Below, piece by piece: positions 1 to 30,756 of a stretch of DNA of 64,000 bases. Under the pieces are notes generated by a model. It made no database searches and was not told the DNA's origin. It saw nothing but the letters and a program-made list of their open reading frames with translations. This DNA comes from a virus, in the IMG/VR virus record IMGVR_UViG_3300045988_118131. One strand, 5' to 3'. Position 1 is the stretch's first letter, and every line of letters starts with the position of its first letter. Both the position numbers and the translations under genes were made by a program.

Positions 1-1875
1 ACACCAACCAGCAGCTATATCTTCACTAGAACCTAAGGCAGATATAATTTTATCGGTATTAGAATTTCCGTCATAGTCTAACTTAGCTTCAGTATTATTT
101 GTAATATTACTTAATCCTGGAACATCTGTACCATATCCACCTCATTGGATACTATCATTGCTGTTTGTCTTATCTATAATAAAACTACATTTATCACTAA
201 CAACAGCAACTCCTACAGCTTTACTATTGTTACTAGTGTTCCAACTACCTACAGCTGTAAGTTTACCGTCACTATCACAAATATATACACCATTAGCAAT
301 CTTAGTATAAGTCATAGTTACTGATCTAGATACTTGATTAGCTGTGAAAGATTGAGTAGCTGGAGTATTATAGCCCTTTATATTAGAAGCTGAAATATTA
401 TAACTAGTTCCAAATGGAATTTTATAGACCTTTGGAGAAGTAGTCTGAGAACCCTGACCGCTCACTGTAATAGTATAACCAGAAGCCCCACTTACATTAA
501 CAGTTAAAAATTCTGATTGATATGTACCAGTTTCATTTTTACTAGCTGAGTTAGCTGTTCCAGATATAGCATCTGGAGTTTTATAGCCAGTCACTTCAGA
601 GAAAGTAATATTATAACTAACTCCAAACGGTATCATCAATGTTTTGGAAGTATCACCGTCAGCAAAAGGAACTGGAGTAGAACTAGAATTATACCTTATC
701 GTAGCTGTAGTGTTTCCAAGACCTTCACTTTGGTTGGATGCCCTGGTAACGGTCAGTTTTGTAGACTTATATTCTCCAGATTTGCTCATGGAGGCGCCTG
801 CAGCAGTATCTGATATAACTGAGGGTTTTGTATAGTTAGAAATTTCTGGGAAAGTGATAGTAAATTCGCTTCCAGTTGGCACATTTATAGATTTAGTCTC
901 TTTTCCATTAAATTGCAACTGATGATCTTCACTATCAAAATTTACAGTTACAGTTAAAGAGCTTAGCTCATCTGACTGATTAGATGTAACTTCTATAGAT
1001 AATACAGTAGTGTTATAAGATAATGTTGCCGTTCCAGAAGTGCCTTCAGCTATTTGTGATAGAGGATTAGGAGTTTTATATCCTTCAATATTTTCTCCAG
1101 TTATAGTATATTCAATTCCGGTAGGAATATTTACACTTTGAGGAGTATTAGTCCAATTGATCTCCTTGCTTACTTTATCATAAGATAATGTTAACTTTAA
1201 ACCATTTAAAGCAGAATCTGGCTGAGACTGATTAGAAGTTACTGTGATTGTAGTGAGTGTAGTCTGATACTCCGAATTAATTGTTCTTGTATTTCCTGCG
1301 ATAGCTGTAAACTCTTGAACATCTGGAGTTTTATATCCTTCAATAGCCTCACATTCTATTGTATAGCTTACATTTACTGGAATTGATGCAGTTAGTGGAA
1401 CTCCACTCCAAGTTAAAGTTGTGGTGTTGTCTAAATATTTAATATGAATTTTAACTCCCTCTAACTTAGCATCTGATCCTTGATTGGATGTTAAAGATAG
1501 AATTAGAGTTTCATTAGCTAATCCTCCACCACTTCCTGCTATCTTCCAATCTGCCTTATCTTTTTTTAAATCATATAGTTTGTAGAATACATACTCTTTT
1601 TTTTCTGTATCATAATATCTTGCTTCATCTCCTATACAGAAGGTATATGTTACTCCTTCTATAATATAAGTTAAGGTATTCTCTCCTGGAACAGATTCTA
1701 GTGTTGGAATGGGGTGTGCTAAACACTCTACTCATTTTCCACTTTTTCTATTATACATCTTTCCATCTTCAGGAGCGTCTGGAAACTGTTGAACACCTAT
1801 TTGTGAAATTGGCAAATACTCTTCTTCGGGAGTATGACCATCCCACTGAGGATTAGGAATTTTAAAAACTGCCAT
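1..1875 (-). CDS. Tail fibre / receptor-binding protein, C-terminus runs off the left edge; read with TGA=Trp
   Basis: ATG at 1875-1873. One frame stays open to position 1 if TGA at 1732-1734 and 142-144 are sense. Repeated beta-sandwich units end in (E/T)GYKTP. The C-terminal GVYICDSDGKL..AVGVAVV..QWGGYG module is a paralogue of modules in 2770..6216. Confidence 0.6.
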
Positions 1876-1921
1876 ATTAATTCTTTTAATAATTTAAATA
1901 AATAATCTTCTTTTAAATGGT

Positions 1922-2116
1922 TTATTTTTCATCTTCTAAACTCTTCACTGCATCTTCCAGAGCATTGATATTTGGGGACTCAATGATCTTTATTCCTGGA
2001 ATTGTAACTCTGTAGACAAATTTGCCTGCAGAGTCTATTCCAGATAGAATACTAGATGTAGGGTAAATAGCTAGTATTCTTTGTTTACAATTAACAAGTC
2101 TTTCTTCATTAGTCAT
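1922..2116 (-). CDS. Hypothetical protein
   Basis: 64-aa ORF, TAA stop, packed between fibre genes. Confidence 0.4.
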   Translation of the reverse strand: MTNEERLVNCKQRILAIYPTSSILSGIDSAGKFVYRVTIPGIKIIESPNINALEDAVKSLEDEK

Positions 2117-2768
2117 AATAATGTAAACTAAGAGTACCTTTAATAGTTAATTCGTTATTACTATATTTAACTGTGTTATCTATTATAGAAATACTAGATA
2201 TACTCTTTAAATCAATAGTAGCTACTGATTCAGAATTGTCCATAATATCTACATAATTATAAGCAGTATCTAATAAGTAACTTTCATAATCAGAGTCAAT
2301 TTGTACTAATTTAGGCACTTTTGATAATGAATATTTTAAATCTATTGGTTCATTTATAACTCCAGAGCTATTTAAGGTTTGATGGGTTTCTTCTGATATA
2401 GTTATTGAATATTCTCCTGCGGGAATTTCTGTAAATGTTACAGATGTGTTATCTCCTGTATTTTCTACTCTTCTTACTTTATCAGAAGCTATAAATTCAA
2501 CTTTACTATTCTTAGCGTTAGAAGTTACTGTAACTGAATAAATAGGTTGTACCTCAATATTTAATGTAGAAGAATCTATCAATACTGCTTCCGAATATCT
2601 AGAAGTGGTTTCAGTCTCTTCTACTTCAATAGTATAATTGCCATGAGTTATATTTCCTAATGTAGCTTCTCCACTTGCGTTAGTAACTCCAGTAGCAACT
2701 AACTTTTGTATGTCCATGTTTTCTGGATTAGACATACTAGAATCAAATACTAATCTATCTTGTTCCAT
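2109..2768 (-). CDS. Tail-associated protein with carboxypeptidase-regulatory-like beta-sandwich
   Basis: 219-aa ORF. NASGEATLGNITHGNYTIEVEE-type motif. ATG lies 1 nt after the TAG stop of the upstream gene. Confidence 0.4.
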   Translation of the reverse strand: MEQDRLVFDSSMSNPENMDIQKLVATGVTNASGEATLGNITHGNYTIEVEETETTSRYSEAVLIDSSTLNIEVQPIYSVTVTSNAKNSKVEFIASDKVRRVENTGDNTSVTFTEIPAGEYSITISEETHQTLNSSGVINEPIDLKYSLSKVPKLVQIDSDYESYLLDTAYNYVDIMDNSESVATIDLKSISSISIIDNTVKYSNNELTIKGTLSLHYYD

Positions 2769-2769
2769 A

Positions 2770-5700
2770 CTATACAGCTATTATTTCTTTAAAACTATTA
2801 ACATCTTTTGATTCTGTTAATTCACCTCTAAAAGCAAGACGTGAACCTTTAGTATAGCTTATAGAGGTTGTAGTGTCGTTAGCATATGTATATGCTATGC
2901 TACCATTACCCTCAACTGCGTGCGCTCCAGAACGGGATAGGATTATTTCTTTACTCCCTAGAGTGTAATAGTAAGCACAGTAATTTTCTCCCAGTTGTTC
3001 TTGACTCTGTATAGAAGTAGGTATTACATCAAAGAATGGTCCTTTTTCAGCTTGTATATGTGATATATAGCCCATAGAACTATATGCTTTGACTGTTCTA
3101 ACAGAGTTGTCTAGATTAGTTATACTCCAAACATTATTATTAATAATAACACCTTTTACATATTCCTCAAGACCTCCAAATACTCCTTCTATACCTCTAA
3201 AGTTTACCCATCCAGAAGAGGCTTTTTCTGTGTCTCTATTTCCTAAAGCATCAGTCCCTCCTGTTTTAGTATTATATTCTGCCCCACCAATTCCTAGAAC
3301 AGCTTGTGAGTGTCTATTTCTATATTTAGCATAGAACAACATAGCTATTTGACAATGCTGATAATAGTCAATAATCTGATATCCAGTTCCTCTAGATTCT
3401 GAGTAGGTAGTAGCATTATTAAATGAAATATCGCCTTTAGGAGTTACTCCACTTCTACTGTATAATTTCTTACTTGATACATATCCTTTATATGCTCCAA
3501 TCAATGAAGCAGGAACGTGTATTCAATCTTCCCCTAAGTTTACACGAGAAAATCTATATGCAAACTTAGCACCTCCTAAATTTTCATAATGGTAATAATA
3601 CTCTGGCAAATACACCATTACATCACCTTCTGTACCATCAGTTTTAGCCACAGAACCATCAAAATATTTTAATCTAGTATTTTCATCTAGTCTTATAAAT
3701 GTTCCAGCTTTATCTCCTGTTCTCTTAAACAGTACACATCCCATTTCAGAAAGTATTTGAGATATAACAGAATCCTGAGATTCCTCTCAAACATTTACTG
3801 TAGCATCTGGTACTGGTTCCGATGTCTTAGTAACATTTGCTGTAACATTATACACTTTACTTATCACAAATGTGATAGCATTGATATTGTCTAATATATC
3901 CTTTGTAACTACTGCTTTAGAATAACCATCCTTCTCAATAGTAAAGGTGTAGGAACCATTTAAAAGATGTGTAGAAATCATTCCTCCTTCAGTTGTCTCT
4001 GTAATATAGTCTAAGACTCCATCTTCAGACTGTATCCTTACTAATGCATTTGGTACTATATTTCCTGATTCTGTATTTTCTTTAACCGTTATATTTACAG
4101 TAGCTCCCTGTTCCAATACTACTTCTTTACTTAAGTCACTACTCAAATTTTCAATAATTCCTGAGTAAGGAACATAGTCTTGATGCTCTACATAAAATGT
4201 AGAATCTTTTCCTGCTCTTAGTCTTAAAGTGGCTTCTCCAGATTCATTAGTTGGTTTCAGCTTTGAAGGACTATTATTTGGAATTATTTTTGCATTTTGA
4301 ACAATTTGAGTTCTCTTATTATTGAGTGAGGCAAATGCACGCACCCTACGCACATTGCCCTTAAGAGATTTATTTAGGTCACTTTTATTTCAATGCATTG
4401 ATCAGCTGGAGCTAGAATTGCATTGCGTGCTGGTTCAATAATAATAGTCTGTTGCTATTGCTGTGCCTCCGATAAGTGACATACAAGTATCTATTTCGTC
4501 CTTGTTATTATATGCTTCCTGTCATTCACTGCACGAACCTAAATAACCTCTTTCACCATTTTTAAACAAAAAACTTTGACACCAACCAGCCGCATAGTCA
4601 GAAGTATTTCCATATTGTGCTACAATAGCGGATGAATTTTGAGCGCCTCTATAATCAGTAGTCCTTGCCATTAATGGTTCAGTAGTCGTGGTTACACCTG
4701 GTACAACATCCTGTGCCCCACCTTTACTTCATATTTGAGTACTACTATTATCTGTTGGTGCGATCACGAATTGGCATTTGCTTAACAAGACAACTACTCC
4801 TACTGCTTTGTTGTTGTTTTCGATACTCCAATTAGAGCGAGTAACGAGACTATTATCCGTATCAAGGATATATATCCCTTCTTCTGTACTTCCTTGAAAT
4901 GGGAGAAAGGTAAAAGGCAAAACTTTAAAACTGCTATTTTTAACTGGTTGAAGAGATTTTCCATCTTGCCAATAAAGAGCCGCGTTATTAGTAGGTCCAA
5001 ACTGGGTACATGTTTGAATATATTGGCTCCCCCATAAAGAAAGACCCAATGTACGCAAAATCTCTTCCACCTGTGTTCTGTAAGAATACAAAATATTTAC
5101 CTCACCAAATGAAGGTAAATAACCACTTTGTCCATTCCCAAACGCATATGTCTTAGCATATTTTGCCGCAAGTGCGTTGTCAATTCCTAAAGCAGATATT
5201 ATCACATCAGTGTAAATAAACCCATGTGTTGCTTTACTTAAGTTTGAGATTGGTATACCAGAACTTAACAACGGTACATTGGGAATCAAAGTGTCTCGCC
5301 CACCAAAAGGATAGCTTTGGGCACTTATGGCTGTCGATACCATAAACGAATTAGTATCAGTTGAAATACCTATACCACATACATCAGATGTTCCCTTACC
5401 AGATAATGCCCATTCCTCTTTTGTGTAACGATTATCGTCTTTATCATAGATATACACACCATTTGGAACAGGATTGTATTCATAGGTGCAGAAAGGACGA
5501 GAATTACAAGGATTGGTTTTAGCATAACCACTGGGTGCAGAATCACCCCAATAAGCACTCCAAGCGGCCTGTTCGTTATATTGTGTCGAAGTCCAGAATA
5601 TAGCACTGCCAATAATAGCTCCACCTGCTATGCTTATTGAACCATTTATAATGGTTCTATTTAGTCGGGCTACATTCCACTGTCCACAAGAAGGCAAAAA

Positions 5701-6216
5701 TCAAGAACCCGCGCCAAATCCTTCTGTAGAATAAGCTGCACACTTATGAGCCGCCGTGTCTTCCGTTGGTTTCGTAAGTATGATATTTTGAGAATTTGTC
5801 TTACCTGCAAAATCACAAAGAGCTAAAGAAGTGTTTGTTTCAGTTGTAACATCAGGAATAAGGCTATTCGTAGAGGACCAGTAATCACTTTGTACGTTTT
5901 GCAAAGCAATAAAGTCAAAATCCTTGCTTCTTACATCAGTAATAACCCCGACACATGTTTTAGTTTCACTTAAATTTGTACTTCAAGTTTTATCACTATA
6001 TACAAAATCTCCAACTTTTGGTCTAAAAATTAATTCATGTTTTTCTCTACCCTTAACATTAAAATCTACAGCCCAGGTATTATTTATATGTTCTCCATTA
6101 TATTTAACTCATAAGTTTTCTGGAGATTCAAATATTCCATTTCGTTTAATCATAGGCTCATAGGGAACCCATGAGCCATTATGATTAATATATTGTTCTA
6201 TTATCTTAGTTGTCAT
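2770..6216 (-). CDS. Large multidomain receptor-binding protein (about 1148 aa) with duplicated DUF1566-like lectin-type modules; read with TGA=Trp
   Basis: Track ORFs 5701..5904, 4729..5697, 3787..4353, 3523..3744 and 2770..3504 share one frame and are separated only by TGA. There are 10 in-frame TGA, e.g. 5701, 4729, 4522, 4435, 4402, 4390, 3787, 3523. ATG at 6216, TAG stop at 2770. Confidence 0.65.
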
Positions 6217-6219
6217 ATG

Positions 6220-7656
6220 TTATTGAGTTACAATTTGAAACCATATATCTCCATCTTTTCCTCCAGATGGCTCATCAGCTGAAACTGTTATTACTGGAAC
6301 TTTAGAATTAACTTCTTCTTTTGCATAGTAATTAGATAAATCTATAGAAGTATTTCCTATCAACTCAAATTTCGAGCCATCCCAAATGTATTCGTTATAA
6401 ACATCTTGACCTGATCCAGACTTAGAAACTAAGTATAAAACATTGCTATCTCCAGTTTGAGGTAATGATTCCACTTTCTTTACTTCAAACTGATGTACTT
6501 TAGCTATCTCTCCATCTACATAAGTTTTTGTAGTATAATTAGAGTCATTGGATAGCTGGCTTGTCTTTGTTGGAATAGTAGGTTTATTTAATATCTCAGC
6601 AGCATTTCCTGCAGATGCATTCCAATCTGGCTTTATATTAACTTGAGCACCTTCTTCTATTCCGTCTAATTTATTCTTTAGTGGATTAGTAAAATCGTTG
6701 GTAGATAGTCCCTTTCCAGGAACTTTAGTTTGGAACAATTCATTAGACTCTTCTTTAGTATAGCTTTCTACTACCTCAGATTCAGATAAATCTACCCAGA
6801 TAGGAACTTTAGTTTCAGGTTTAACACCGCTTGAAGTGTGAACTTCTTCTGGAATAGCTACTGCCTTTCCAGAAATTTCTATAGGCTCCCCAGCAAATGT
6901 TATAGATTCAATTTTATTTACCTGAGCTTTAGCTTCAATACCTTGAAGTTTGGTGAAGTTTTCACTAGACATTAGCCCGGCTTCTGTTGTACTAGCCATA
7001 GAAGAAGTTCCTCCTAGAGGATCCCAGTCAGTTCCTGTTCATGCATAGTTAATATCAGTTTTAACAACATTTCAAACATCACCTACTTCATTACTTTGAG
7101 TTGGAAGATCTTGATAAGTAGGTTTAGAACCTTTGTATTTATAAACACCAGGAATATTAACTCCCTCTATGAGATCGTTTACTTCAGTCTTTGTATATAT
7201 ATCTGGCTTATTTAATATTTTAGCCCCTCCAGACTCAGCATTCCAATCAGCTTGTGCTAATCCATCTAGCTTTGTTTTATCTTCTTTAGACATTAGACCA
7301 TCTAAAGAAGGAGATGCCAATTCTGTTGTTCCCTCAACTAGTCCCCACTTGGCTCTTCCATCTGAGATGTCAAATAATTTGTAAAATCTGTATTCTTGTT
7401 TATCTGTATCGTAAAATCTGCATTCGTCTCCTATTCTATATTTATAGTTTGTTCCTTCTAGATTGTAGCTAAGTAGCGACTCTCCAGGAATATTGGATAC
7501 TGTCACAATTTCAGACATTGGGTAATAAACTCCCTGAGTCCAAATTTCTCTAGTGTCCTCAATAAATGCAATAGAGTCTGGTTTTACCTCGGATGCAGAT
7601 AACTTAGCTTCGAATCCAGCTTTTGTCTTCGCTTGAATAAATAATGTTTCTATCAT
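6220..7656 (-). CDS. Tail fibre protein; read with TGA=Trp
   Basis: ORFs 7072..7656 and 6220..6999 are in one frame, joined through TGA at 7072 and 7039. N-terminal F..K....F..KL.......SI.FI.DT..I...G.YY adaptor motif. GLMS..DK.KLD fibre repeats. Confidence 0.65.
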
Positions 7657-7660
7657 ATTA

Positions 7661-8005
7661 TTAAGTTATTGTAGTCCAATTTGTGTTATCAATAATGCCT
7701 CCAACTATGACTCCTCCTGAATCGGTTATAGTTGTTCATGCTACATCAGGACCTCTAGTAATCATAGCATGAAGCTTACTTATAGCAGTTTCAAAACTAT
7801 CTCCGGGCTGAGGTTGAGAGTTGTCTTTAGATGGTCCATAGTCTTCTCCAAGTATTCCATCATAGTCATAGAACTCGCCGTGAGTGTATATTTGTCGAGT
7901 GTCTTTGATAAAAACAATACTAGTGTCTAAGATATTTCCAGATTCCAGCTTCTCCTTAAATTTAGAGAATGTTTTGAAATGAATAAACCTCTTTTCAATA
8001 GCCAT
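7661..8005 (-). CDS. Small protein with tail-fibre N-terminal adaptor motif; read with TGA=Trp
   Basis: 89-aa ORF continues through TGA at 7736 to TAA at 7661. Its N-terminus is paralogous to those of 6220..7656 and 8065..10842. Confidence 0.5.
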
Positions 8006-8064
8006 TGTACTAGTATATTTAAAATGAGAGGAGAATTAACCCCTCTCTGTTAGTCTTCTTCACC

Positions 8065-10842: not shown

Positions 10843-10855
10843 AAAATTTTTAAAT

Positions 10856-11833: not shown

Positions 11834-11851
11834 TCTCAACTAAATTTTAAG

Positions 11852-14257: not shown

Positions 14258-14412
14258 GCAACAATGTAGAAGCTATATAGTTACTATTTTTAATATCTGG
14301 ATATAACTCTATTAAGCATACAATATTCATTAAATCATTGTATTTTATTTTATATCCCTTTTCTAGCCTCTTAACTAAGTGATCGAAATCATGTATAGCT
14401 TTTCTTTTAAGC

Positions 14413-15141: not shown

Positions 15142-15142
15142 A

Positions 15143-19885: not shown

Positions 19886-19887
19886 AA

Positions 19888-20466
19888 TTAATCAAATGCT
19901 CCAAGCTCTGCGTCCCCTCTAATAGAGGAATTAACCGCTTGAATTTCTTTCTTATACATAACTTCTAAGTTCTTAAGTTCATCTACCACTTTTGACGCAT
20001 TTTGCATTTCTGCAATAACATCTTTCGTTTTATATATTGGCTTTTGGGTAACAGGGTCTCTTTCACTTAAATCCAAATCGTTAAAATAATCCGTAATTTT
20101 ATCTACTACTCCTTGAGCAGCTTTGATAAATTTTAACGTTTTAGACGACTCCTGCAACTCTCTATATTTCCTACAAGCAGCTCTAAAAGTAGGATCAGCC
20201 CATTCTTCATCAGTAATACTAGCATCTTGTAAGCATTCTTGGTGTCTTTCCTGTTCATCAAATTGTGAATAAGGACTTAACCAATCTAACATAAGGAATA
20301 TATATTTAAACTCTCTGAAAGCTCTTAATCGTCTAGTTCCAGTAGGGTCTTCCTTACATTTATTTCTTCCTTTTTCCCATAATCCTTCAAATTCCCTAAC
20401 CAATAATATTTCTGGTTCATTTAATTCTAATTCTCCAGAAGCATTATTATATACAAATACTTTCAT
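19888..20466 (-). CDS. Hypothetical protein (position compatible with small terminase)
   Basis: 192-aa ORF directly upstream of terL on the coding strand. No recognisable motif. Confidence 0.4.
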   Translation of the reverse strand: MKVFVYNNASGELELNEPEILLVREFEGLWEKGRNKCKEDPTGTRRLRAFREFKYIFLMLDWLSPYSQFDEQERHQECLQDASITDEEWADPTFRAACRKYRELQESSKTLKFIKAAQGVVDKITDYFNDLDLSERDPVTQKPIYKTKDVIAEMQNASKVVDELKNLEVMYKKEIQAVNSSIRGDAELGAFD

Positions 20467-20489
20467 ATTAATCCACTAAAAATTTTACA

Positions 20490-21545
20490 TTATTTTAATT
20501 TCGGAATACCTGAAGGTTTTAACATAACAAGATTATTCATTCCAGCCACAAAATCTGTATCCGTAGCTTTTTTACCAGCAGCTTTCAATGCTGTTAATAA
20601 TTTAGTATTTTGAGAAGCTGTTCCTTTATATTCTACATCACCAAAAATTTTCTGGAATAATTGTTTTCTCCCCTCGAAACTAGCGTCTTTGGAGTCAAAC
20701 CCATTTAACATCATCCATCCATATAAAGTAGATTGATCTAGTTTAGGTTTTTTAATTTTTGGAGCCGTAACTGTAACTTCTGGAAGTTCTCTCGGAGAAA
20801 CCTGACTCTCAGTTCTTCCCCATAAAGCTATTGGATCAGATGTTCCAACATGAGCTACAGGTCTAGGAGATGACTTTTTTTTTACAGTAGTTTTTGTTCC
20901 CTCTTGTGCAAAAATAATTCCTCCCTGTAAATGTTTTTTAATATTTTCTGTAGCCTTTTTACTTTGCTCTTTATTAGGAGCTTTAACTTTCTTTTTAGGA
21001 CTCCATCCATCTTCATGATGTCCTGAATTTCTGTTTAATTCTTGAAGACGTCTATGTTCTGGACTATTTTGTTTTATTTGGCCTTTCTTATATTTTTCTA
21101 CAAGATTAGCGTGCTCTCCTTCATTATATTTTCCGCCTTCTTGCATTTTCTTCTTTTTCATTTTTCCTCCACACTTGCTAGATTCTATCTCACTTTTAAT
21201 AGAATCCATTAAGGAGCCTTTTTTCATTTGAACAGTAGATTTCTTTTTGCATCTTGAACAAGGTTTCCCTCCAGCCATAAAGCGTTCCACTTCGTAACCT
21301 TCAGGGCATCCTCCATTAAGTCTAATAATATAATCCAATTTACTTCCAGCTTTTGCAGATTTAACAGAAGTGTTTTCTAATTGTTGTGCCATAATAGGTC
21401 AAATTTCTTTATTAAATTGATTTGCTAATTCATCTAATCTATCTTTCCCTAATCTTTTAATTTCTAAGTCTAGTTGATCAGGTTCATTAACTTTTAATAT
21501 CTCGGATAATCAAGAAATGAACCCTTGTTCTTTTAAATGGTTCAT
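20490..21545 (-). CDS. Lys-rich hypothetical virion protein; read with TGA=Trp
   Basis: The 300-aa ORF extends upstream in frame to ATG 21545 through TGA at 21399 and 21510. Contains K.LQGG / MQEGG motifs. Confidence 0.5.
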
Positions 21546-21600
21546 ACGCCTATAAATACGAAAAGGAGACTACTTTAGGGTAATCTCCTATAATTTATAA

Positions 21601-21843
21601 TTACTTATTTTCTACTTTCTGCAAATCTTTAGTATTCCAAACTGCTTCTTGGAACTCTCCATTTGTAGTAAACCATCTACATTTAATACCTCTAAAATAC
21701 TCTACCGTATTTTTACCATCCATAGGAGTATCCAATTTAAAGGTTCTAGTTTCTTTTTTTACTACAATCATTATTGGTTTATTAGGAATATCTTGTTTTA
21801 AAGTTACAAGATCTCCTGGTTGAAAAAATACCTTTTCTATCAT
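21601..21843 (-). CDS. Hypothetical protein
   Basis: 80-aa ORF, TAA stop. Confidence 0.45.
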   Translation of the reverse strand: MIEKVFFQPGDLVTLKQDIPNKPIMIVVKKETRTFKLDTPMDGKNTVEYFRGIKCRWFTTNGEFQEAVWNTKDLQKVENK

Positions 21844-21849
21844 AACTTA

Positions 21850-22410
21850 TTATTGTTTAATTGAAGAAAATCTTTCAGTAAGTTCTTCATTGATTACTAC
21901 TAAAACATTATTTTGACTAACAACCCATAGAGCTTGTCCCAAGAATGGTGTTGGTCTTTGAGTTCCGTTGATAAAAATAATATCATCCCCCGGTCTTACA
22001 TACTTAACTTCTGGACCTACAGCTATTACCTCTGCATAGCCTACAGCCATTCTAGCAACTTCCTTTTCTCCAGTTTCGTGAGAAATATAAGTTCCGTCAT
22101 ATACTGGAATAATAAGTCCAGATTCTGTAGTTTTTACTTGATCCCAGGGATTTTTATTATACATTCTAACTAAAATATTTCCATTAGTAGGAAGGATTTC
22201 TAGGTTAGTTGCTTGTTCTTTCACCTGTTTAGAACGTTCGAGTTCTTTATCTATATTTTTACAGAATGATTCAGAAGCCTCTTTAGTAGTTTCATTAAAT
22301 GTCTTAATAGCACTTCTTCTTTCTTCTTCACTAAGTTTTTCTGCTCCAATCATACTAACTGCACTTCCTCCCATTACTAAATCCATTCTTCCGTTATTTA
22401 ACATAATCAT
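21850..22410 (-). CDS. GroES-like co-chaperonin domain protein (tentative)
   Basis: The C-terminal half (ILPTNGNILV..TESGLIIPV..GYAEVIAVGPEV..VRPGDDIIF) follows the GroES/gp31 pattern. Confidence 0.4.
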   Translation of the reverse strand: MIMLNNGRMDLVMGGSAVSMIGAEKLSEEERRSAIKTFNETTKEASESFCKNIDKELERSKQVKEQATNLEILPTNGNILVRMYNKNPWDQVKTTESGLIIPVYDGTYISHETGEKEVARMAVGYAEVIAVGPEVKYVRPGDDIIFINGTQRPTPFLGQALWVVSQNNVLVVINEELTERFSSIKQ

Positions 22411-22423
22411 TTAAATTTTAAAA

Positions 22424-22645
22424 TTACCATAAATCATTAGGGCAATGTTCTTTATACACCCTAGTTTTTGCATCTAATAAACAGCCGCATATCCCACACC
22501 ATGCTCCATCTTTGTCTGAACATTTATTACAGATCTTTATTCTGCTATTTCTCATTGCTTCGTTTTGACCTGTAAGTTTGTACCAAAATCCTATAACTAT
22601 GTGTTTTAGTTTTATTATAATACTTCTCATTTTCCAGCTGGACAT
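22424..22645 (-). CDS. Cys-rich small protein
   Basis: 73 aa; C..C...(n)C.ICGC....C motif. Paralogue of 22615..22854. Confidence 0.4.
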   Translation of the reverse strand: MSSWKMRSIIIKLKHIVIGFWYKLTGQNEAMRNSRIKICNKCSDKDGAWCGICGCLLDAKTRVYKEHCPNDLW

Positions 22646-22854
22646 TTCTCAGTTTTTAATTTTGCTTTTAGTTTTATTTTGCACCCACATCCTTTTACAT
22701 AACCATCTAAAGGATGTATAGAGACATCTCCAGTTTGAGGATTGATATATAAACTATTGCTGCATATTCCTCCATTATTTGGAGAATATATGGGACAATT
22801 TTCACATATTCGTATTCTGGATTCTCATAGAGTTTGATTAATTCTTCCTTCCAT
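22615..22854 (-). CDS. Cys-rich small protein; read with TGA=Trp
   Basis: ATG 22854, TAA 22615, in-frame TGA at 22825 and 22627. Product MEGRINQTLWESRIRICENC..GCGCKIK..CPAGKW. Confidence 0.4.
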
Positions 22855-22973
22855 TTTTACTTATATTTATAATTACAGTTGTGGCATTTGTAAAAGTTAT
22901 TTGATAACATCAATGCGGATTATTCGGCATATGGTTTGTTCTATTAATTATTTATTGCCACTGTATGTAATTA

Positions 22974-24863
22974 TTAAAATTCTATTCTTTTTCTCTTGGA
23001 TGCCCTCTCTTCTTGTATAAGCTCTTTTCTGTATTGAGATAGCATTCTTTCTACCTCGTTCTTTAAGTATTCTACTTCATGTGTGGATACGTTTCCATCA
23101 TGATCAAAATATACAAGAATTAATTTCTTTATATTAAATTGAGGATTATTTTTCTTAATCATCCAAGCGTAGGTACTTAATTGTAGAGTGTAATGCATGA
23201 AATTACAATCCATTAAATTGTTTAGAGGAAACTTCATCATAGCATATTTTTTAGCAGCTGGATCGTATCCAGATTTCATTTTTAATTCCTTATTAGTGTT
23301 ATGAGTAACAATCATTGATTCTCCAAATAGGAAAGTATGAGATGGACTATCCACCTCTAAACACTGTGTAGCTATTGTATCAACTCTCTCTACAGAAACA
23401 ATATTTCTAAATGAATGTTTGTCTATCAATGGAAAATTAATATCCTGATTTCTTACTAGGAATGGATTTAATCCATTAGTCGAGAAACATACATCCCATC
23501 CTTTAAATATCTTTCCGTTACACCTTTTATCAACTTCAAATAAAGTAGCTTTAATGCCCAACGTACTAACTAATTTAATTAAATCCCTAGCTTGCCACTC
23601 CTGAGTCGTTCCCATAACAAATCTTTTTCTACCCTCATGGTAGTAGCCATCCGTATCCATTAAACCTCTTAGTAAGTCAAGCCTTTGTTGGAATGATGCT
23701 CTCATATATAAGTCAGGAATAAATTTGTTATTTAATAATTCTAGATGATTTAGTTCTTTTCTGATACCATATATGGTTCTCATCTCTGCATGGGCTTCAT
23801 CAGATAGATTATCACCGTATGTATATCCCCTATTTGATATTTCTTCCCACACTTTCGGATTTATATTGGTTAAAATACCACAAGATTTAGAACCGTCTCC
23901 CAACCAACATCCTAATACATAGGGGTCAATCGGCAAATCAATTTCTGGCAGATTTAGAGGTTTACTGTTAAGTATCTTAGGGATATTATAAGAAGTTCTA
24001 GGTTTCTCTATAAGCCACTTAGCAATTTCTTCTGTAGTCATAATTCTATCACTAAAGGTCTTATCTGGTCTTCTGAATGAAATTAACCATCTATGCTCGT
24101 GGTCTGCAACTATAGATTCCCCATTGTCAAATGTAATTTTATAACATGGATTATAATGTATATCTGACTTATGGATAACTTTTGTGATGTTACCATCCCT
24201 ATCAAATATTTCATCACCTTCTTTAATATCACCTATAGTAGTCCATCCTGTTTTAGTAGGAATTACTGTATCTAAAGGTAATCCTTTATAGTCGATAATA
24301 TAAATATCATTTCCGTCCTTGACTAATAAGTCTATTTGTCCTGCTAATCTAATGTGCCCATCTTCAGATACTCTAGAAATTAAATACTCAGGATATACTG
24401 CAGATTCTAAATCTAATGGAGTGTAGTTTTGCTTACAAACGAATTTTCCTCCCAATCCATAAGATTTTAGAGAATAACTAGAAGCTCCAGAGTAAAACTT
24501 TTTTTCCATAGCTGCATGAATTTTAGTTCCTCTTTCACAAGATTCTCTATTAGTCTTAGCCCATTCATCTAATATGTCTTGCTGGGTAGAATTAAAAGTA
24601 ACCTCGTCAATATCATATAATTCTAATACTGAGTTATCCCATTTCTTAGATTTCAATAATCTCGGCTTTTCCATTGCTGCAAATTTTTGAGAACCTATTA
24701 ACCTCTCTAGTGCTTTGTATTTACTCCAAAAATCTTGATCAAAAGGTTGCTCAAATCTACCTATTAAGGTAGTTACAGAAATAAACTTTTGACCCTCATC
24801 ATTCCAATATTGATGAAATTCATCATTATAATTTACATTACCATTTCTCTTATCAACTTGCAT
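22974..24863 (-). CDS. PD-(D/E)XK (RecB/lambda-exonuclease-type) nuclease interrupted by an intein
   Basis: 629-aa ORF. The exteins join as ..GQIDLLVKDGNDIYIIDYK|TNKELK.., which restores the D..(D/E)xK motif. Confidence 0.75.
   Translation of the reverse strand: MQVDKRNGNVNYNDEFHQYWNDEGQKFISVTTLIGRFEQPFDQDFWSKYKALERLIGSQKFAAMEKPRLLKSKKWDNSVLELYDIDEVTFNSTQQDILDEWAKTNRESCERGTKIHAAMEKKFYSGASSYSLKSYGLGGKFVCKQNYTPLDLESAVYPEYLISRVSEDGHIRLAGQIDLLVKDGNDIYIIDYKGLPLDTVIPTKTGWTTIGDIKEGDEIFDRDGNITKVIHKSDIHYNPCYKITFDNGESIVADHEHRWLISFRRPDKTFSDRIMTTEEIAKWLIEKPRTSYNIPKILNSKPLNLPEIDLPIDPYVLGCWLGDGSKSCGILTNINPKVWEEISNRGYTYGDNLSDEAHAEMRTIYGIRKELNHLELLNNKFIPDLYMRASFQQRLDLLRGLMDTDGYYHEGRKRFVMGTTQEWQARDLIKLVSTLGIKATLFEVDKRCNGKIFKGWDVCFSTNGLNPFLVRNQDINFPLIDKHSFRNIVSVERVDTIATQCLEVDSPSHTFLFGESMIVTHNTNKELKMKSGYDPAAKKYAMMKFPLNNLMDCNFMHYTLQLSTYAWMIKKNNPQFNIKKLILVYFDHDGNVSTHEVEYLKNEVERMLSQYRKELIQEERASKRKRIEF
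23298..24284 (-). mobile_element. Intein (329 aa) with LAGLIDADG homing endonuclease; class-3-like
   Basis: aa 194-522. N-terminus GLPLDTVIPT (Gly where Cys/Ser is usual). LAGLIDADG motifs LGCWLGDGSKS and LLRGLMDTDGYY. C-terminus MIVTHN followed by Thr+1. Confidence 0.7.
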
Positions 24864-24864
24864 A

Positions 24865-25500
24865 CTAGTTTTCCATTTGTTTTTTAACTTGGTTATAATC
24901 TAATAGTATTGCTAACCTTTGTATTCTCGGAGATACTGTTTTCATATAGTACCCTAGATTATATTGTGGTTTTGTTTTATATAAAACTATAACCATTCCA
25001 ACAGGGTCACTGACTCCTTCTATTGGATAAAAAGCTACAGCAGAAGCATTACATAATCTAATTTTTCTATATAATTTAGGAAAGGACTCTTTTAATTCGC
25101 CTATACTGTCCGCTCTTAAATACCTTAAATTATGTATTTTGATAAGCTCCTCTCCATAATTTATGTAGCTTAACTCCCTAAACTCTTCTCCCCACATAGG
25201 CTCATCATCTTTAAATTTTTCAGCTAAGAATGTTATATATTTATATGAGAAACCTTGAGAGCTGTGATTATTGTTGTGATAATTTAGCAATATTACATTA
25301 GTCGCGTCTGGATCACTTATAAGTATATACTGTATCTGTGTATTAATTGTAGGCGTTATACGTTCAGTATAACGTTCCGCTTCCATCTTCTCCAATCTCT
25401 CTTTACTAATTAACCTATTAACTACGTTAATGTTAGAAACATTAATGTTAAGTATAGCTAAAATTAGTAAAATAAGAAAGGCTCTATTCTCCTTACTCAT
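24865..25500 (-). CDS. Hypothetical membrane-anchored protein
   Basis: 211 aa with an N-terminal hydrophobic segment. TAG stop 1 nt before the next ATG. Confidence 0.5.
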   Translation of the reverse strand: MSKENRAFLILLILAILNINVSNINVVNRLISKERLEKMEAERYTERITPTINTQIQYILISDPDATNVILLNYHNNNHSSQGFSYKYITFLAEKFKDDEPMWGEEFRELSYINYGEELIKIHNLRYLRADSIGELKESFPKLYRKIRLCNASAVAFYPIEGVSDPVGMVIVLYKTKPQYNLGYYMKTVSPRIQRLAILLDYNQVKKQMEN

Positions 25501-25704
25501 TTGTAGAAAAAATTGAAGACTGTTTTTAAATCAATCTGCTAACATATTCACGCTATTATTTTTAAATGTATAACAATCAAACGATTTTATTTTTGGTTAT
25601 TAACATTATTCCATATTTTCGTGTCTAAGTAATTTTCATTTGTTCATGTGCAAAATTAGCACTAATTTCGTAGAGTAAAAAATGAAATATAAAATATTTT
25701 AGTT

Positions 25705-26013
25705 ATGAATTTAAACGAACAGTTATCTAAATTAGTCAAAGACAAATTCCGCGAGGAAATACAAAAACTACCATTGAGCAGTATTTCCTATTTAAAAAAT
25801 GGTGGAAAAACAGTCAGATTATCAAAAAAGGGAGGTAAAAATAAGATTCACATAAAGAAGGAAAATAGAGGTAAGTTTACTGCTTCTGCTAAGGCTGCAG
25901 GGCAGTCAGTACAAGAACATGCACGTAGTGTATTGAATAATCCAAATGCTACACCTCTACAAAAGAAGAGAGCAAACTTTGCACGTAATGCAGCTAAGTG
26001 GCATCATAAATAA
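25705..26013 (+). CDS. Basic hypothetical protein
   Basis: 102-aa ORF, Lys-rich, LKNGGK motif. Confidence 0.5.
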   Translation: MNLNEQLSKLVKDKFREEIQKLPLSSISYLKNGGKTVRLSKKGGKNKIHIKKENRGKFTASAKAAGQSVQEHARSVLNNPNATPLQKKRANFARNAAKWHHK

Positions 26014-26021
26014 GATTTATT

Positions 26022-27731
26022 ATGAGCGATAAAAATAAATTAGTAAGAAAAATATCAACTGATACTGTTATTCCTTACTTTCCTACTAGTGATAATCTAA
26101 TTAAAGACTTAAAATTAGATAGTATATATAGAAATTCTATCGCTGCTGCTTTTATGCCTCAGTATATAAATGAAAGTGGCGGAAACCCAGAAGAGTGAGT
26201 CAAAACTTCAATGTTTAGAATAGGAGGAAAATTTACTCCTAAGAAATCCCAATTAGTTAAAAATGCAGAAGAACTAAATTCTAAAAGAGATATGAGAAAG
26301 AAACTAATTAAAGGAACTAGTTGACCTAGTACTAAAAAGCGCATGATTAAAAAACAACAGGGAGGAACACTAGATGATGAATTTCTGAATTATGATAATG
26401 TAAATATTTCTGAAACACCTTTACCAGAACTGACCTTTGATACTTCTAATTTTAATCCTTACAATTATATTAGTGAGGAACCATCTAAAAGAGAAGTTCC
26501 GAATCAATCTTCAGAAGAGACTTCTCAGGAACCTAATATTCAAAAGGAAGAGAAGCCTGTTCTAGAAAAGACTGTAAAATCTCCTGACTTCGATCCTAAA
26601 TTAGGATTAATGGGAGAGTTTGTTAAAATAGCTACAGAAGAAGGCATTCCATTTAGGGTAACTAGTGGCTACAGACCTAATTCAATTACTTCAAACGGCT
26701 CTCGCAGTTGACATAGTAAAGGCTTAGCTTTGGATATAATTCCTAAAGAAGGAGTTAGTTGGGAAGTATTTAAGAACTCATTCAACAAAGCTCCTAAAAC
26801 TCTTAAATGAATAAGAGATAATAAGATGGGAATATTAGACGAAACAACTCCAGAAATGTTAGCTAGAACTGGAGGAACAGGAGCTCACTGGCATATAGGA
26901 AGAGATAAAATGGCTGTAGATTCATTCAGTAAAATGTTTCCTATAAGTAAAAATGGAGGAGTTTTAAAGGCTCAATGAGGAACTAAACTTACAGGAGTTT
27001 ATACAGTTAATCCTGGAGATAACTTGACCAAGATTTCTAATTCTTTAGAAATTCCTCAAGACAGCTTACTAAGTTATAATAATATTCCTAAGTCTAAAGC
27101 AAATGATCTAGCAATAGGACAAGAACTTCTGTGAAGAAAGGAGCCAGAATTTCTAGATAATGTAAAGAGATTTTTCTTTGAACCTAAGGAAGAATCAGAC
27201 AAATCAGTGTCTAGAAATAATATAATAGAAAAGAATGTATGACTTAGTAAAACTACTAAACCAGAAGTCAATCCTATTTATTCAACTAGATTTAAAGAAA
27301 AGAATTTTAGAAAGTTTGCCAATACTATGAAAACTATATATTCTGAAGTATTAGACGAATTAGGATTACCTAAGCATAATATATCTAATTTAGTTAGACA
27401 AGATGCGTTAGAAAGTACCTATGGAACTAGCCCTAGAGGTAATGGATACAACTTAGGAGGAATTAAAGTTTTTAATAATAAGGAAACTTTAGGAACTCGA
27501 CATTCTGATGGGTATTACTATAGAAATTTTAAAGACCTGAAAGATTATGCAAGATATAAAATTAAATTACTACATAATGATTACGGAGCCATAGAAGCTC
27601 CGGCAGAACAATTTATAGATGCGTTACACGGAAAGAATAAAAAGAAGAAGATATACAGTGCTGGAAAAGATGCTTATGAGAAATTCAGAAATATGAAGTC
27701 TCTTAATAAATATCTAGATGAATCCAATTAA
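26022..27731 (+). CDS. Three-domain peptidoglycan hydrolase (M15 zinc peptidase + LysM + glucosaminidase-like); read with TGA=Trp
   Basis: ATG 26022. Track ORFs 26343..26711 and 27327..27731 are in the same frame. Seven in-frame TGA, e.g. 26709. Motifs: S-W(TGA)-HSKGLALD (H-x6-D) and GAHWHIG (HxH) for M15; YTVNPGDNLTKIS..LAIGQEL for LysM; RQDALESTYGTS..YNLGGIK for glucosaminidase. Confidence 0.75.
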
Positions 27732-27776
27732 AGTTGGAATTCTTCTTTTAAATGGTTAAACTAATTTTGTACTAAA

Positions 27777-28040
27777 ATGTCATTTAAAGATTTTATTTGA
27801 GACACAGTATCAGAAGGTAAAAACCCTTCTAGTAAAAGAGTGGCTGGATGCTTAGGATGGTTAGTATGTTTATTAGCCTCTATAGTAGCTATATTTTATG
27901 TTATTCCCAGTCCTAATATAATTGAGATGTTATTTTGATCTAGCTGTGCACTACTAGGTATTGACTCAGTTGCAGGAGCTTTTAAACATAATCCATTTAA
28001 GAAAGATGCCAAAGGTGAAGTACGGAACGGAGGAGTATAG
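27777..28040 (+). CDS. Holin-like small membrane protein; read with TGA=Trp
   Basis: 87 aa with two in-frame TGA. Hydrophobic segments GCLGWLVCLLASIVAIFYVI and MLFWSSCALLGI. Lies directly after the hydrolase. TAG stop. Confidence 0.5.
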
Positions 28041-28818
28041 GAATGCATATAATAAAAGAAGTCTAGCCAATTACGATTTTAATTCTAAAACCTATAATTT
28101 AGCTAGACCTCTTCCTGATATTGTTGCTACTCCTAAAAATAATTTAGATTTGGGACAGGTAGTTAGAAATGGAACTTCAAAAATAGGTAAACCTATAGGT
28201 GTAGCTATTACTGAATTAGCAGCATTACATCCTGTAATAGGATTAGCTAAAGCTGGAGTAGATGCTAAACTAGCTGTTAATCAAAGAGATAAAATACTTA
28301 ATAGTCTAGCTGCATTACCAATTCCTGTAATTAGAAATCTTACAAAAGCTAGAAAGATTATTAGTCCTGTAACTAAAACTATGAAGAAAGTTGAACCAGG
28401 AGTTACCAGAATTTCGCTAAATAGTCCTAGTAAAGAATTGGGACATATAGACTTAAGTGATTCTTTTGAAAAGACTGCTGGATTTGATACCATCTATCCA
28501 GAGTATATCAAAGTTAATGAAAAAGGTAAGGGATTATCTAAAGCACTTTATGCTGCAGGTATAAAAGATATGAAAAAGCCTATAATAAGTGGAGAAGTAT
28601 TATTACAACCAGAAAAGACAGTTAAAACATATAAATACTTTGATGGACCAGTATTACCTCCTCTTATTATGGAAGAAGGGTATAATTATCCCAGAAAGAT
28701 TATGGTCAAACCAAAGAATCCTAATTTATATGAAGATACTATAAAAGAGTATCAAAATAAAACAGCTAGATATTCGGACAATCTATCAGAATTATGAAAA
28801 TTAGTGAGTAAGAAGTAA
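28006..28818 (+). CDS. Hypothetical protein; read with TGA=Trp
   Basis: ATG 28006 (MPKVKYG). TGA at 28795 is followed by 6 codons, then TAA. Confidence 0.5.
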
Positions 28819-29603
28819 TGAAACTAAATATAAGAAAATTTCAAAAAGGTGGAAGTAGTAGACTTCCTACATTTAGTCTACCAGAAATAAATATTTATCC
28901 CAATAATAAATGAGGAGATATTGCTAGAAAACAAGGACTAGAAACTGCTAGGAACTGGAGAAAAGTTAGAGAGGGAACAACAGCTGGAATTAATGAATTT
29001 GTTAACGACCCAAGAGCACAGTTTGTTCAAGCCTTATTACCCTTACCTGAAGGATTAGAATATCTTGGAATGGTAGGCAGAAAGGCAATAAAAAGTAAGG
29101 CAGCACAACTAGCTGCAAAACAACTAAATAGAAATATAGATAAAACTAAACTAATTCCTAAGTCACTTCCATCAAATGTAGGCTGAGCACCTACTCAAAG
29201 TGTTAAGGTTATCCACGATAAAAATAATTCAGAAGCCTTAAAATTATTTTTTCCTGAAAGATGAGATGTAATTAATGAAGGAGCTAACCCATTTGGTATT
29301 TGATTTCAAGGTAAGTGAGGATTGCCTAGAGAGGGAGTTAAAGCAGCTAAGGCAGCTAAAGCTAGAGCACTATTTGCTAATAGACCCTATAGAGTTTCTG
29401 GCACTTTAAAATTAGATAAACCTATACAAACTGTAGGTGAAGTTTCTAATAGAGCTGCTCTAACCAAATCAGCTGAGCAAATGGGGGCAGATGGAGTTAT
29501 ATTCAACAATGTTTACGATAATGGTTATTCCAATAATCAAGTTATATTTAGTTTTAAAGACTTAATAGATGGAATAACAACAAAAAAGGCGGCAGGTAAG
29601 TAA
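28818..29603 (+). CDS. Hypothetical virion/lysis-block protein; read with TGA=Trp
   Basis: ATG 28818, same frame as track ORF 29322..29603. Five in-frame TGA. RKFQKGGSS motif. Confidence 0.55.
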
Positions 29604-29818: not shown

Positions 29819-29819
29819 T

Positions 29820-30730: not shown

Positions 30731-30756
30731 ATTAATTCATTTTTAATTTAAGATTG

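What the first reader, a model, noticed from the sequence alone, without database searches (positions are those of the whole stretch)
1..29603. Late/structural genes are written in a TGA=Trp code (about 50 in-frame TGA)
Under the standard code the late genes break into same-frame pieces separated only by TGA, never by TAA or TAG. Counts of in-frame TGA: terL 6, receptor-binding gene 2770..6216 10, peptidoglycan hydrolase 26022..27731 7, fibre 11852..14257 5, gene 28818..29603 5. The window provides its own control. Inside 2770..6216 two paralogous modules align so that TGG-coded Trp in module 1 (AIF-W-TSTQ, AA-W-SAY-W, SCGQ-W-N) sits opposite TGA in module 2 (YYY-TGA-TSTQ, SS-TGA-SMH-TGA, SCSE-TGA-Q). 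TGA also falls on the conserved Trp positions of a NUMOD4 domain (32981, 32999). It also lies directly before the zinc-ligand His of the M15 peptidase motif. Real stops in this block are mostly TAA, with a few TAG (2770, 24865, 28038). Stop-codon-recoded gut phages are known, so the phenomenon is not new. It does change every late-gene call here, and it sets up the code partition described in the next finding.
Basis: partly seen in the sequence, partly recalled or inferred. Interest (0 to 1): 0.8.

Follow-up and report, generated by a model that had tools for sequence, protein, structure and literature searches.

The report
Gut phage reads TGA as tryptophan
This is part of a large gut crAss-like phage whose virion and lysis genes use the stop codon TGA for tryptophan, with the help of the phage's own suppressor tRNA. 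The recoding is real, but it has already been published for this phage group.

Summary
The 24 coding sequences in 1..29603 carry 51 in-frame TGA, 87 TGG, and no in-frame TAA or TAG. They end in TAA (20) or TAG (3).

TGA means Trp here. In 78 relatives that do not recode TGA, the window's TGA sites align to TGG in 53% of cells, against 0.4% at other sites. Against an 87%-identical relative there are 20 TGA<->TGG exchanges, and TGA never aligns with any other codon. TGG in one internal paralogous module sits opposite TGA in the other.

A phage tRNA(UCA) lies at 31922..32017 on the minus strand. Five early genes end at TGA in ATGA overlaps with the next start, so the genome uses TGA in two ways.

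The window is a close relative of phage Lera/ct1yV3 ('Echekvirus', Zeta crAss-like). Its opal recoding was published in 2025, and the general phenomenon in 2014-2022. Novelty: already known.

One by-product may be new. The suppressor is a 96-nt tRNA whose long variable arm copies the tRNA-Trp anticodon loop (UCCA). Two motif-free scans found this in 36 of 38 non-Sec long-arm phage tRNA(UCA) and in 0 of 13 tRNA-Sec-like ones.

The parts
1..25545 (-). Late structural/packaging block: tail fibre, baseplate, tail proteins, portal, terL, terS and others. 19 CDS with 36 in-frame TGA.
   Evidence: Gene order and lengths match Lera Table S1.
2770..6216 (-). Receptor-binding/baseplate-like protein, 1148 aa, 10 TGA and 14 TGG. 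It contains paralogous modules that act as an internal TGG/TGA control.
   Evidence: five TGG-versus-TGA columns between modules 1 and 2; tail-protein PHROGs.
11852..14257 (-). Tail fibre, 801 aa, 5 TGA and 10 TGG.
17558..19885 (-). Large terminase, 775 aa, 6 TGA and 3 TGG.
26022..27731 (+). Endolysin (M15-like motif + LysM + glucosaminidase-like), 569 aa, 7 TGA and 2 TGG.
27777..28040 (+). Holin-like membrane protein, 87 aa, 2 TGA, TAG stop.
   Evidence: Lera annotates a 264-bp holin with suppression at the same place.
28006..29603 (+). Two further lysis-cassette genes (270 aa with 1 TGA; SLT-like, 261 aa, with 5 TGA).
   Evidence: Across the cassette there are 15 TGA and 4 TGG, against 36 and 83 elsewhere, Fisher p 1.5e-4.
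31922..32017 (-). Opal suppressor tRNA(UCA), 96 nt. 7/5 acceptor/T arms, A1-U72, G73, and a long variable arm whose loop reads C-UUCCAAA-A.
   Evidence: It is 100% identical in three related contigs. Class analysis.
31123..31410 (-). Peptidyl-tRNA-hydrolase-like gene (95 aa, 1 TGA) lying between the two suppressor tRNAs.
   Evidence: phrog_3668 'hydrolase', E 2e-8. Lera annotates it as 'aminoacyl-tRNA hydrolase' with suppression.
31039..31111 (-). Amber suppressor tRNA(CUA). It is present although TAG is not recoded in this window.
   Evidence: (tRNA model, 51.6 bits).
32807..33019 (-). NUMOD4 homing-endonuclease-like ORF (70 aa) with 2 TGA. It marks the outer edge of the TGA=Trp zone.
48840..48912 (+). 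The phage's ordinary tRNA-Trp(CCA). It shares A1-U72, C2-G71, G3-C70 and G73 with the suppressor.
38235..38238 (+). One of five early-gene ATGA junctions where TGA acts as a stop and overlaps the next ATG. The others are at 39546-39549, 54933-54936, 59359-59362 and 62841-62844.

Best explanation
The window comes from a Zeta crAss-like phage of about 165-180 kb, a close relative of Lera/ct1yV3 ('Echekvirus'), which infects a standard-code Bacteroidales host. About 37% of the Trp codons in its late virion, packaging and especially lysis genes are written as TGA.

These genes can be completed only when the phage's own opal suppressor tRNA(UCA) at 31922..32017(-) is present and charged with tryptophan. 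The charging enzyme is presumably the host TrpRS, because no phage TrpRS or release factor is annotated in the published relative.

Early genes avoid in-frame TGA, and five of them use it as a true stop in ATGA start/stop overlaps. The same codon therefore has two meanings, separated by gene class and presumably by time. This is the late-gene and lysis timing lock proposed for recoded phages.

Shown here: the in-frame TGAs, their equivalence to TGG, the tRNA, and the early/late partition. Inferred: the charging enzyme, the timing, and the regulatory purpose.
For: 51 in-frame TGA and no in-frame TAA/TAG in 24 CDS; off-frame stop statistics. Coverage by ORFs of at least 150 aa rises from 0.72 to 0.91 only when TGA is read as sense.

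Full-length, single-stretch terL match. TGA aligns to TGG in 78-79 of 80 loci at three terL sites. Overall 53% TGG at TGA sites, 70% at TGG sites and 0.4% elsewhere.

20 TGA<->TGG exchanges and no other partner against L001. Internal paralogue control. NUMOD4 profile prefers W by 8-9.5 bits. Endolysin W columns.

Suppressor tRNA(UCA) with the same A1-U72/G73 as the phage tRNA-Trp, identical in three related contigs.

Early genes: five TGA stops, all ATGA overlaps. Lysis-gene bias, odds ratio 8.6, p 1.5e-4.

Bacteroidota-type genes are present: DUF6383 and OmpA.

Literature: Lera has the same gene lengths, the same pair of suppressors, opal suppression and a predicted Parabacteroides host. Zeta-group phages recode TGA or TAG mostly in late genes. 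Borges et al. propose the late/lysis model. 13 of 13 phage tRNA(UCA) tested inserted Trp in E. coli extract.
Against: There is no peptide evidence for this phage.

The suppressor is structurally atypical. Its best Rfam match is tRNA-Sec at 34 bits, below the 47-bit gathering score. A long variable arm is what SerRS recognises, so its charging cannot be read from sequence. tRNAscan gave 'Trp or Arg' for the Lera copy.

One poorly conserved endolysin TGA (residue 101) aligns mostly to Arg codons in relatives.

No RF1 or TrpRS is annotated in Lera, so how RF2 competition is overcome is unknown. Suppression efficiency and expression timing are untested. The host's code is inferred, not shown.
Confidence: 0.93

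Rival explanations
1. The host itself uses genetic code 4 (TGA=Trp), and the phage simply follows it across its whole genome. There would then be no code switch.
For: Code-4 bacteria exist (established knowledge). The window alone cannot show the host's code.
Against: Five early genes end exactly at TGA in ATGA overlaps with the next start. Early genes hold 83 TGG and no in-frame TGA. The phage carries its own tRNA(UCA). 78 of 80 terL relatives use only TGG. Bacteroidota-type domains are present, and iPHoP predicts Parabacteroides for the published relatives.
Confidence: 0.03
2. TGA is decoded as another residue: Gly as in code 25, Sec, Ser or Cys through the Sec-like long-arm tRNA, or Arg.
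For: ARAGORN and Rfam see the tRNA as Sec-like. Long variable arms are SerRS determinants (review). One TGA site aligns to Arg codons. tRNAscan reports 'Trp or Arg'.
Against: At TGA sites relatives carry TGG in 53% of cells and mostly Phe/Tyr/Leu codons otherwise; no Gly, Ser or Cys codon is among the commonest. TGA exchanges only with TGG in the close relative. NUMOD4 scores 8-9.5 bits worse with Ser, Cys or Arg. The tRNA lacks the 8-bp acceptor and 6-bp D stem of tRNA-Sec. All 13 phage tRNA(UCA) tested elsewhere inserted Trp.
Confidence: 0.02
3. Suppression is deliberately partial. TGA acts as a leaky stop that throttles late and lysis protein output, rather than as a fully reassigned sense codon. 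This refines the main explanation rather than excluding it.
For: No RF1 or RF2 inhibitor is annotated. TGA remains a stop in early genes. TGA is concentrated in lysis genes. Proteins with 7-10 TGA would be very sensitive to suppressor level.
Against: With 6-10 TGA per essential protein, even 70% read-through per codon would leave only a few percent full-length product. Efficient decoding is therefore needed. TGA and TGG drift freely as if synonymous.
Confidence: 0.15
4. The fragments are real separate genes, pseudogenes or assembly errors.
For: None found.
Against: Full-length homologues exist. The same TGAs occur in independent assemblies L021 and L001. A 100% identical 775-aa terL is present in public collections.
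Confidence: 0.01

Closest known systems
Phage Lera (PV725988) and ct1yV3, proposed genus 'Echekvirus', Zeta crAss-like phages (Babkin et al. 2025, PMC12386605)
   Same: Opal (TGA->Trp) suppression in terL, structural, endolysin and holin genes. tRNA-Sup(TCA) plus an apparently unused tRNA-Sup(CTA). The same gene order and lengths: portal 2187, terL 2328, terS 579, 1056, 555, holin 264, 813, 786 bp. The same tRNA cluster of 95/72/72/86 nt with a 273-bp aminoacyl-tRNA hydrolase. GC about 32-33%.
   Different: The window carries a 984-bp intein/LAGLIDADG insert in the exonuclease gene, which Lera and L021 lack. Its endolysin is shorter (1710 vs 2088 bp). Identity to Lera itself could not be measured, because the record is not in the searchable collections.
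Stop-codon recoding of late and lysis genes in gut phages (Ivanova 2014; Yutin 2021, PMC7886860; Borges 2021/2022)
   Same: A standard-code host, a low-GC phage, a phage suppressor tRNA, recoded stops concentrated in structural and lysis genes, code-neutral early genes, and different codes among close relatives. All of these are seen here.
   Different: There is no phage RF1 or TrpRS 'code-change module' of the kind found in the Jade phages. Here the tRNAs sit next to a peptidyl-tRNA-hydrolase-like gene, about 2.3 kb from the lysis cassette.
Genetic code 4 of Mollicutes and mitochondria
   Same: TGA = Trp, read by a tRNA with a UCA anticodon.
   Different: In those systems the reassignment is genome-wide and RF2 is lost. 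Here TGA is still a stop in early genes, and the host presumably keeps RF2.
tRNA-Sec and class II (long variable arm) tRNAs
   Same: UCA anticodon, long paired variable arm, G73.
   Different: 7/5 rather than 8/5 acceptor/T arms, and no 6-bp D stem. Rfam score 34 against a 47-bit gathering score. The variable-arm loop copies the Trp anticodon loop, which none of the 13 Sec-like tRNAs in the motif-free scans did.

Membership tests
Phage stop-codon recoding, TGA->Trp (code-4-like, late genes) | Conserved genes are interrupted in frame by one stop codon type only, and become full length when it is read as sense. | tested here: met
Phage stop-codon recoding, TGA->Trp (code-4-like, late genes) | The recoded codon aligns with Trp (TGG) in homologues. 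| tested here: met
Phage stop-codon recoding, TGA->Trp (code-4-like, late genes) | The phage encodes a suppressor tRNA with the matching anticodon. | tested here: met
   tRNA(UCA) at 31922..32017(-), conserved in relatives.
Phage stop-codon recoding, TGA->Trp (code-4-like, late genes) | The host uses the standard code. | tested here: inconclusive
   Indirect only: TGA stops in early genes, Bacteroidota-type domains, and a published Parabacteroides host prediction.
Phage stop-codon recoding, TGA->Trp (code-4-like, late genes) | Peptides show Trp at TGA. | not testable with these tools
   No proteomics data. The nearest experimental support is that 13 of 13 other phage tRNA(UCA) inserted Trp.
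Zeta crAss-like phages / 'Echekvirus' | terL and portal of the Zeta crAss-like type, with genomes of about 145-192 kb. | tested here: met
   phrog_6681 and phrog_6547. Related contigs are 165-187 kb.
Zeta crAss-like phages / 'Echekvirus' | Gene order and content as in Lera/ct1yV3, including TCA + CTA suppressors and opal suppression. | tested here: met
   Length-for-length match to Lera Table S1. tRNAs.
tRNA-Sec (selC) | 8/5 (13-bp) acceptor/T branch, 6-bp D stem, and a score above the Rfam gathering threshold. | tested here: not met
   7-bp acceptor, 5-bp T stem, 5-bp D stem with a 7-nt loop. 34 bits against a 47-bit threshold.
Canonical bacterial tRNA-Trp | G73 discriminator and A1-U72. | tested here: met
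   The phage tRNA-Trp(CCA) has the same.
Canonical bacterial tRNA-Trp | CCA anticodon in the anticodon arm, and a short (class I) variable loop. | tested here: not met
   The anticodon is UCA. A 21-23-nt variable arm carries the UCCA loop instead.

The most novel reading that the evidence does not exclude
The opal suppressor may belong to a widespread and, as far as I could find, undescribed class of phage 'two-arm' tRNA(UCA). These have a Trp-type body (often A1-U72, G73) with a UCA anticodon arm. They also have a long variable arm that is a covarying hairpin displaying an invariant U-CCA-A copy of the tRNA-Trp anticodon loop.

The most novel reading is that this second arm presents the CCA identity element to the host TrpRS. 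The decoding anticodon can then be changed to UCA without losing Trp charging, which would let a phage switch the code with no synthetase of its own.
Probability: 0.22. Interest if true: 0.72.

Novelty: already known. Interest (0 to 1): 0.3.

Why it matters
For annotation it is decisive. Under table 11, 16 of the 24 CDS in this late block are truncated or split, including terL, the endolysin and the holin.

For biology, this is one more clean example of a phage that keeps two meanings of TGA in one genome: stop in early genes and Trp in late and lysis genes. This supports the view that recoding acts as a timing lock on lysis. Both points are already in the literature for this genus.

The part that could matter beyond that is the suppressor's architecture. 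If the Trp-anticodon-loop copy in the variable arm is a synthetase-recruiting element, it would explain how such phages reassign a codon using only host enzymes. It would also offer a design principle for engineered suppressor tRNAs.

Tried and rejected
TAG recoding, suggested by the tRNA(CUA): reading TAG as sense adds no ORF coverage (0.72 to 0.72), and TAA-only frames extend only by short stretches rich in TAG. Rejected for this window.

tRNA-Sec identity of the UCA tRNA: rejected on structure and on the Rfam score.

PDB sequence search of the endolysin M15 region: only LysM hits, so uninformative. The Pfam M15 hits are below threshold, so the motif claim rests on homologue conservation.

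INPHARED search for the genome itself: only hits of about 67-70% identity, all unannotated.

The genome-contig scan for two-arm tRNAs was mostly noise plus true tRNA-Sec. It showed that some genuine tRNA-Sec also carry UCCAAA in the extra arm when one searches for that motif. I therefore based the statistics only on the two motif-free viral scans.

An apparent TGG->TAG change in L001 lies upstream of the start codon and is not in a coding sequence.

Recent duplication of the anticodon arm as the origin of the second arm: the two stems are unrelated in every family, so any duplication would be ancient.

Eight literature searches found no description of the two-arm tRNA, but the held library is incomplete. 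For example, the journal version of Borges et al. is not held.
Full report
WHAT IS THERE. The window has 33% GC and carries 23 tRNA genes. Frames bounded only by TAA/TAG give a dense, mostly minus-strand block of long ORFs from 1 to about 25.6 kb, followed by a plus-strand cassette at 26.0-29.6 kb. With start codons assigned there are 24 CDS in 1..29603. They hold 51 in-frame TGA, 87 TGG and no in-frame TAA or TAG. They end in TAA (20) or TAG (3, at 2770, 24865 and 28038-28040); one runs off the window.

In the two off-frames of the same genes TAA+TAG number 701 and 902, against 84 and 380 TGA. Frames that hold 51 TGA and no other stop are therefore not a chance product. Coverage of 1..30000 by ORFs of at least 150 aa rises from 0.72 to 0.91 when TGA is read as sense, and not at all when TAG is.

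WHAT TGA MEANS. The read-through terL (775 aa) matches PHROG 6681 in a single stretch, 78-717 against 48-728 of 758, E 4.5e-83. It has hundreds of full-length homologues, including a 100% identical public sequence.

I fetched 80 related terL loci from IMG/VR and read the codons opposite the window's TGAs. Positions 109, 137 and 678 are TGG in 78-79 of 80 loci. The other three are TGG, TTT/TTC, TAT/TAC or Leu codons.

I then extended this to all late genes against the 78 loci that do not recode TGA. TGA sites align to TGG in 368 of 692 cells (53%), TGG sites in 70%, and all other sites in 0.4%. Most of the remainder are Phe, Tyr and Leu codons.

Against the 87%-identical relative L001, 27 alignable TGAs are 16 TGA and 11 TGG, with nothing else. 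Nine window TGG are TGA there. The two apparent exceptions are a non-coding position and one W->Y change. This is synonymous-type drift.

NUMOD4 scores 40.1 bits with W/W against 30.6-32.4 with R, C or S. The endolysin 'SWHSKGxALD' Trp is W in 15 of 17 aligned homologues. Trp is therefore the only reading compatible with the data.

HOW IT IS DECODED. A tRNA with anticodon UCA lies at 31922..32017(-), in a minus-strand cluster ordered Sup(UCA)-Thr-ORF-ORF-Sup(CUA)-Asn. It folds into a cloverleaf with a 7-bp acceptor, A1-U72, G73, and a long variable arm. The phage's own tRNA-Trp(CCA) at 48840..48912 shares A1-U72, C2-G71, G3-C70 and G73.

The suppressor is 100% identical in three related contigs, although coding DNA differs by about 13% in one of them. 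It is not a tRNA-Sec: 34 bits against a 47-bit gathering score, and no 8/5 branch.

No release factor or aminoacyl-tRNA synthetase is annotated in the published relative, so charging by host TrpRS is inferred. Elsewhere, 13 of 13 phage tRNA(UCA) inserted Trp in E. coli extract.

PARTITION. On the plus-strand early block (33.4-64 kb) there is no in-frame TGA. Five genes end at TGA, and all five do so in an ATGA overlap with the next gene's start. TGA is thus a genuine stop there.

It includes a peptidyl-tRNA-hydrolase-like gene (31123..31410, 1 TGA) and the NUMOD4 ORF (32807..33019, 2 TGA).

Within the late block, TGA use is highest in the lysis cassette: 15 TGA to 4 TGG, against 36 to 83 elsewhere, odds ratio 8.6, p 1.5e-4. 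This is what Borges et al. reported for other recoded phages. Portal, terS, the GroES-like gene and the exonuclease have no TGA.

WHOSE GENOME. Only the window, L001 and L021 recode TGA among the 80 terL loci. Nine loci recode TAG and the rest are standard. This is the mosaic described for Zeta crAss-like phages.

Babkin et al. 2025 describe phage Lera and ct1yV3 ('Echekvirus'): 178-180 kb, 32.4% GC, opal suppression in 41 ORFs including terL, endolysins and holin, tRNA-Sup-TCA plus an unused tRNA-Sup-CTA, and a predicted Parabacteroides host. Lera's Table S1 matches the window gene for gene and length for length: portal 2187, terL 2328, terS 579, 1056, 555, holin 264, 813, 786 bp; tRNAs of 86, 72, 72 and 95 nt around a 273-bp aminoacyl-tRNA hydrolase; and OmpA at 1080 bp. 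The finding is therefore already published for this genus. The general phenomenon dates from 2014-2022.

A BY-PRODUCT THAT MAY BE NEW. The loop of the suppressor's variable arm reads C-UUCCAAA-A, which is a tRNA-Trp anticodon loop (U33-CCA-A37).

Two scans of IMG/VR placed no constraint on the variable arm: TCTTCAAAA, then 24-40 nt, then GGTTCGATTCC or GGTTCGAATCC. They gave 51 unique long-arm tRNA(UCA). Thirteen are Sec-like, and none has CCA in the extra-arm loop. Of the 38 that are not Sec-like, 36 have CCA there and 34 have UCCA. Many have the canonical CUCCAAA loop and an E. coli-Trp-like acceptor (AGGGG.../...CCCCU-G).

In 29 distinct hairpins the stem covaries. 91% of cells are paired against 46% in shuffles, and the covariation score is 1.13 against 0.22, with 0 of 500 shuffles reaching it. 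U-C-C-A is invariant (smaller set).

The spacing identifies the UCA hairpin as the true anticodon arm, because one nucleotide follows the D stem. Many of these loci show clear gains when TGA is read as sense, for example 0.33 to 0.92 and 0.49 to 0.89.

Selection evidently maintains a Trp-anticodon-loop replica in the variable-arm position. The natural hypothesis is that it preserves TrpRS recognition, which in bacteria depends on the CCA anticodon and G73 (established knowledge, recalled and not tested here). This is untested.

Some genuine tRNA-Sec also carry UCCAAA in that arm when one searches for the motif, so the motif alone is not diagnostic. I found no paper describing this class. The held library is incomplete, and Babkin et al. 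say only that tRNAscan called the isotype 'Trp or Arg'.

VERDICT. It is already known. Interest is modest for the finding as stated; the tRNA architecture deserves a separate look.

Noticed in passing
window 31922..32017 (-); also L091, L094, L109, L117, L126, L131, L132, L140, L144, L150, L283-L318: The opal suppressor tRNA(UCA) has a long variable arm whose loop copies the tRNA-Trp anticodon loop (UCCA). In two motif-free scans, 36 of 38 non-Sec long-arm phage tRNA(UCA) share this, against 0 of 13 Sec-like ones. The stems covary. No description was found in the held literature.
   Followed up: yes
window 31039..31111 (-): A well-formed amber suppressor tRNA(CUA) (loop CUCUAAA) is present, although TAG is not recoded in this window. 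Only three late genes end in TAG. The same puzzle is noted for Lera in PMC12386605.
   Followed up: partly
window 38235-38238, 39546-39549, 54933-54936, 59359-59362, 62841-62844 (+): All five early-gene TGA stops are ATGA overlaps with the next gene's start. TGA is therefore a real stop in early genes, while it is Trp in late genes.
   Followed up: partly
window 22974..24863 (-), insert about 23302..24286: The PD-(D/E)XK exonuclease gene carries a 984-bp intein-like insert with a LAGLIDADG domain. The insert is absent from the 98-99%-identical relative L021 and from Lera, where the exonuclease is 903 bp. The gene has 12 TGG and no TGA.
   Followed up: partly
window 30756..30842 (-): tRNA-Asn(GUU) is 87 nt long, with a class-II-like D loop and a paired variable-region insertion of about 13 nt. 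The corresponding tRNA is 73-75 nt in the related contigs L084 and L085.
   Followed up: no
window 26022..29603 (+): The lysis cassette writes 15 of its 19 Trp codons as TGA. The rest of the late block writes 36 of 119 that way (Fisher p 1.5e-4).
   Followed up: yes
window 8050..8067, 10856..10876, 11852..11869 (-) (C-termini of three consecutive tail/fibre genes): Three adjacent tail genes end with a shared motif, [LI]-[DE]-W-x-x-[VE]-[ED]-stop (LEwGEED, IDwHDVID, LDwTTVE). The Trp is TGA in each, only 4-5 codons before the TAA stop.
   Followed up: no
window 31123..31410 (-): A small peptidyl-tRNA-hydrolase (PTH2)-like gene sits between the two suppressor tRNAs and itself contains a TGA. It may help with drop-off or with rescue of stalled ribosomes during the code switch.
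   Followed up: partly
window 61485..61558 (+): ARAGORN reports a tRNA-like gene with an undetermined two-base 'anticodon' (tt).
   Followed up: no
L291, L303, L316 (IMG/VR contigs): A separate family of long-arm tRNA(UCA) has a U73 discriminator and a 5-nt extra-arm loop (AACCA or AUCCA). It lies in contigs where reading TGA as sense raises ORF coverage from 0.16-0.19 to 0.70-0.81. The amino acid may not be Trp.
   Followed up: no
L084 10175..10450 (-): ARAGORN predicts a tmRNA-like gene (tag AERTNTSFSIAA) inside the suppressor-tRNA cluster of the 87%-identical relative. None is called at the matching place in the window.
   Followed up: no
window 26322..26324 (+) (endolysin residue 101): This one TGA, in a low-complexity linker, aligns mainly to Arg codons (CGC, AGA, CGT) in 13 of 17 relatives. 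It is the only TGA site with such a pattern.
   Followed up: no
window 1..1875 (-) and 2770..6216 (-): The partial tail-fibre gene has repeated Ig-like modules and a C-terminal lectin-like end (...IAAGWC). This end is paralogous to a module in the neighbouring receptor-binding gene. In Lera this fibre is the target of a diversity-generating retroelement, which would lie just left of the window.
   Followed up: no
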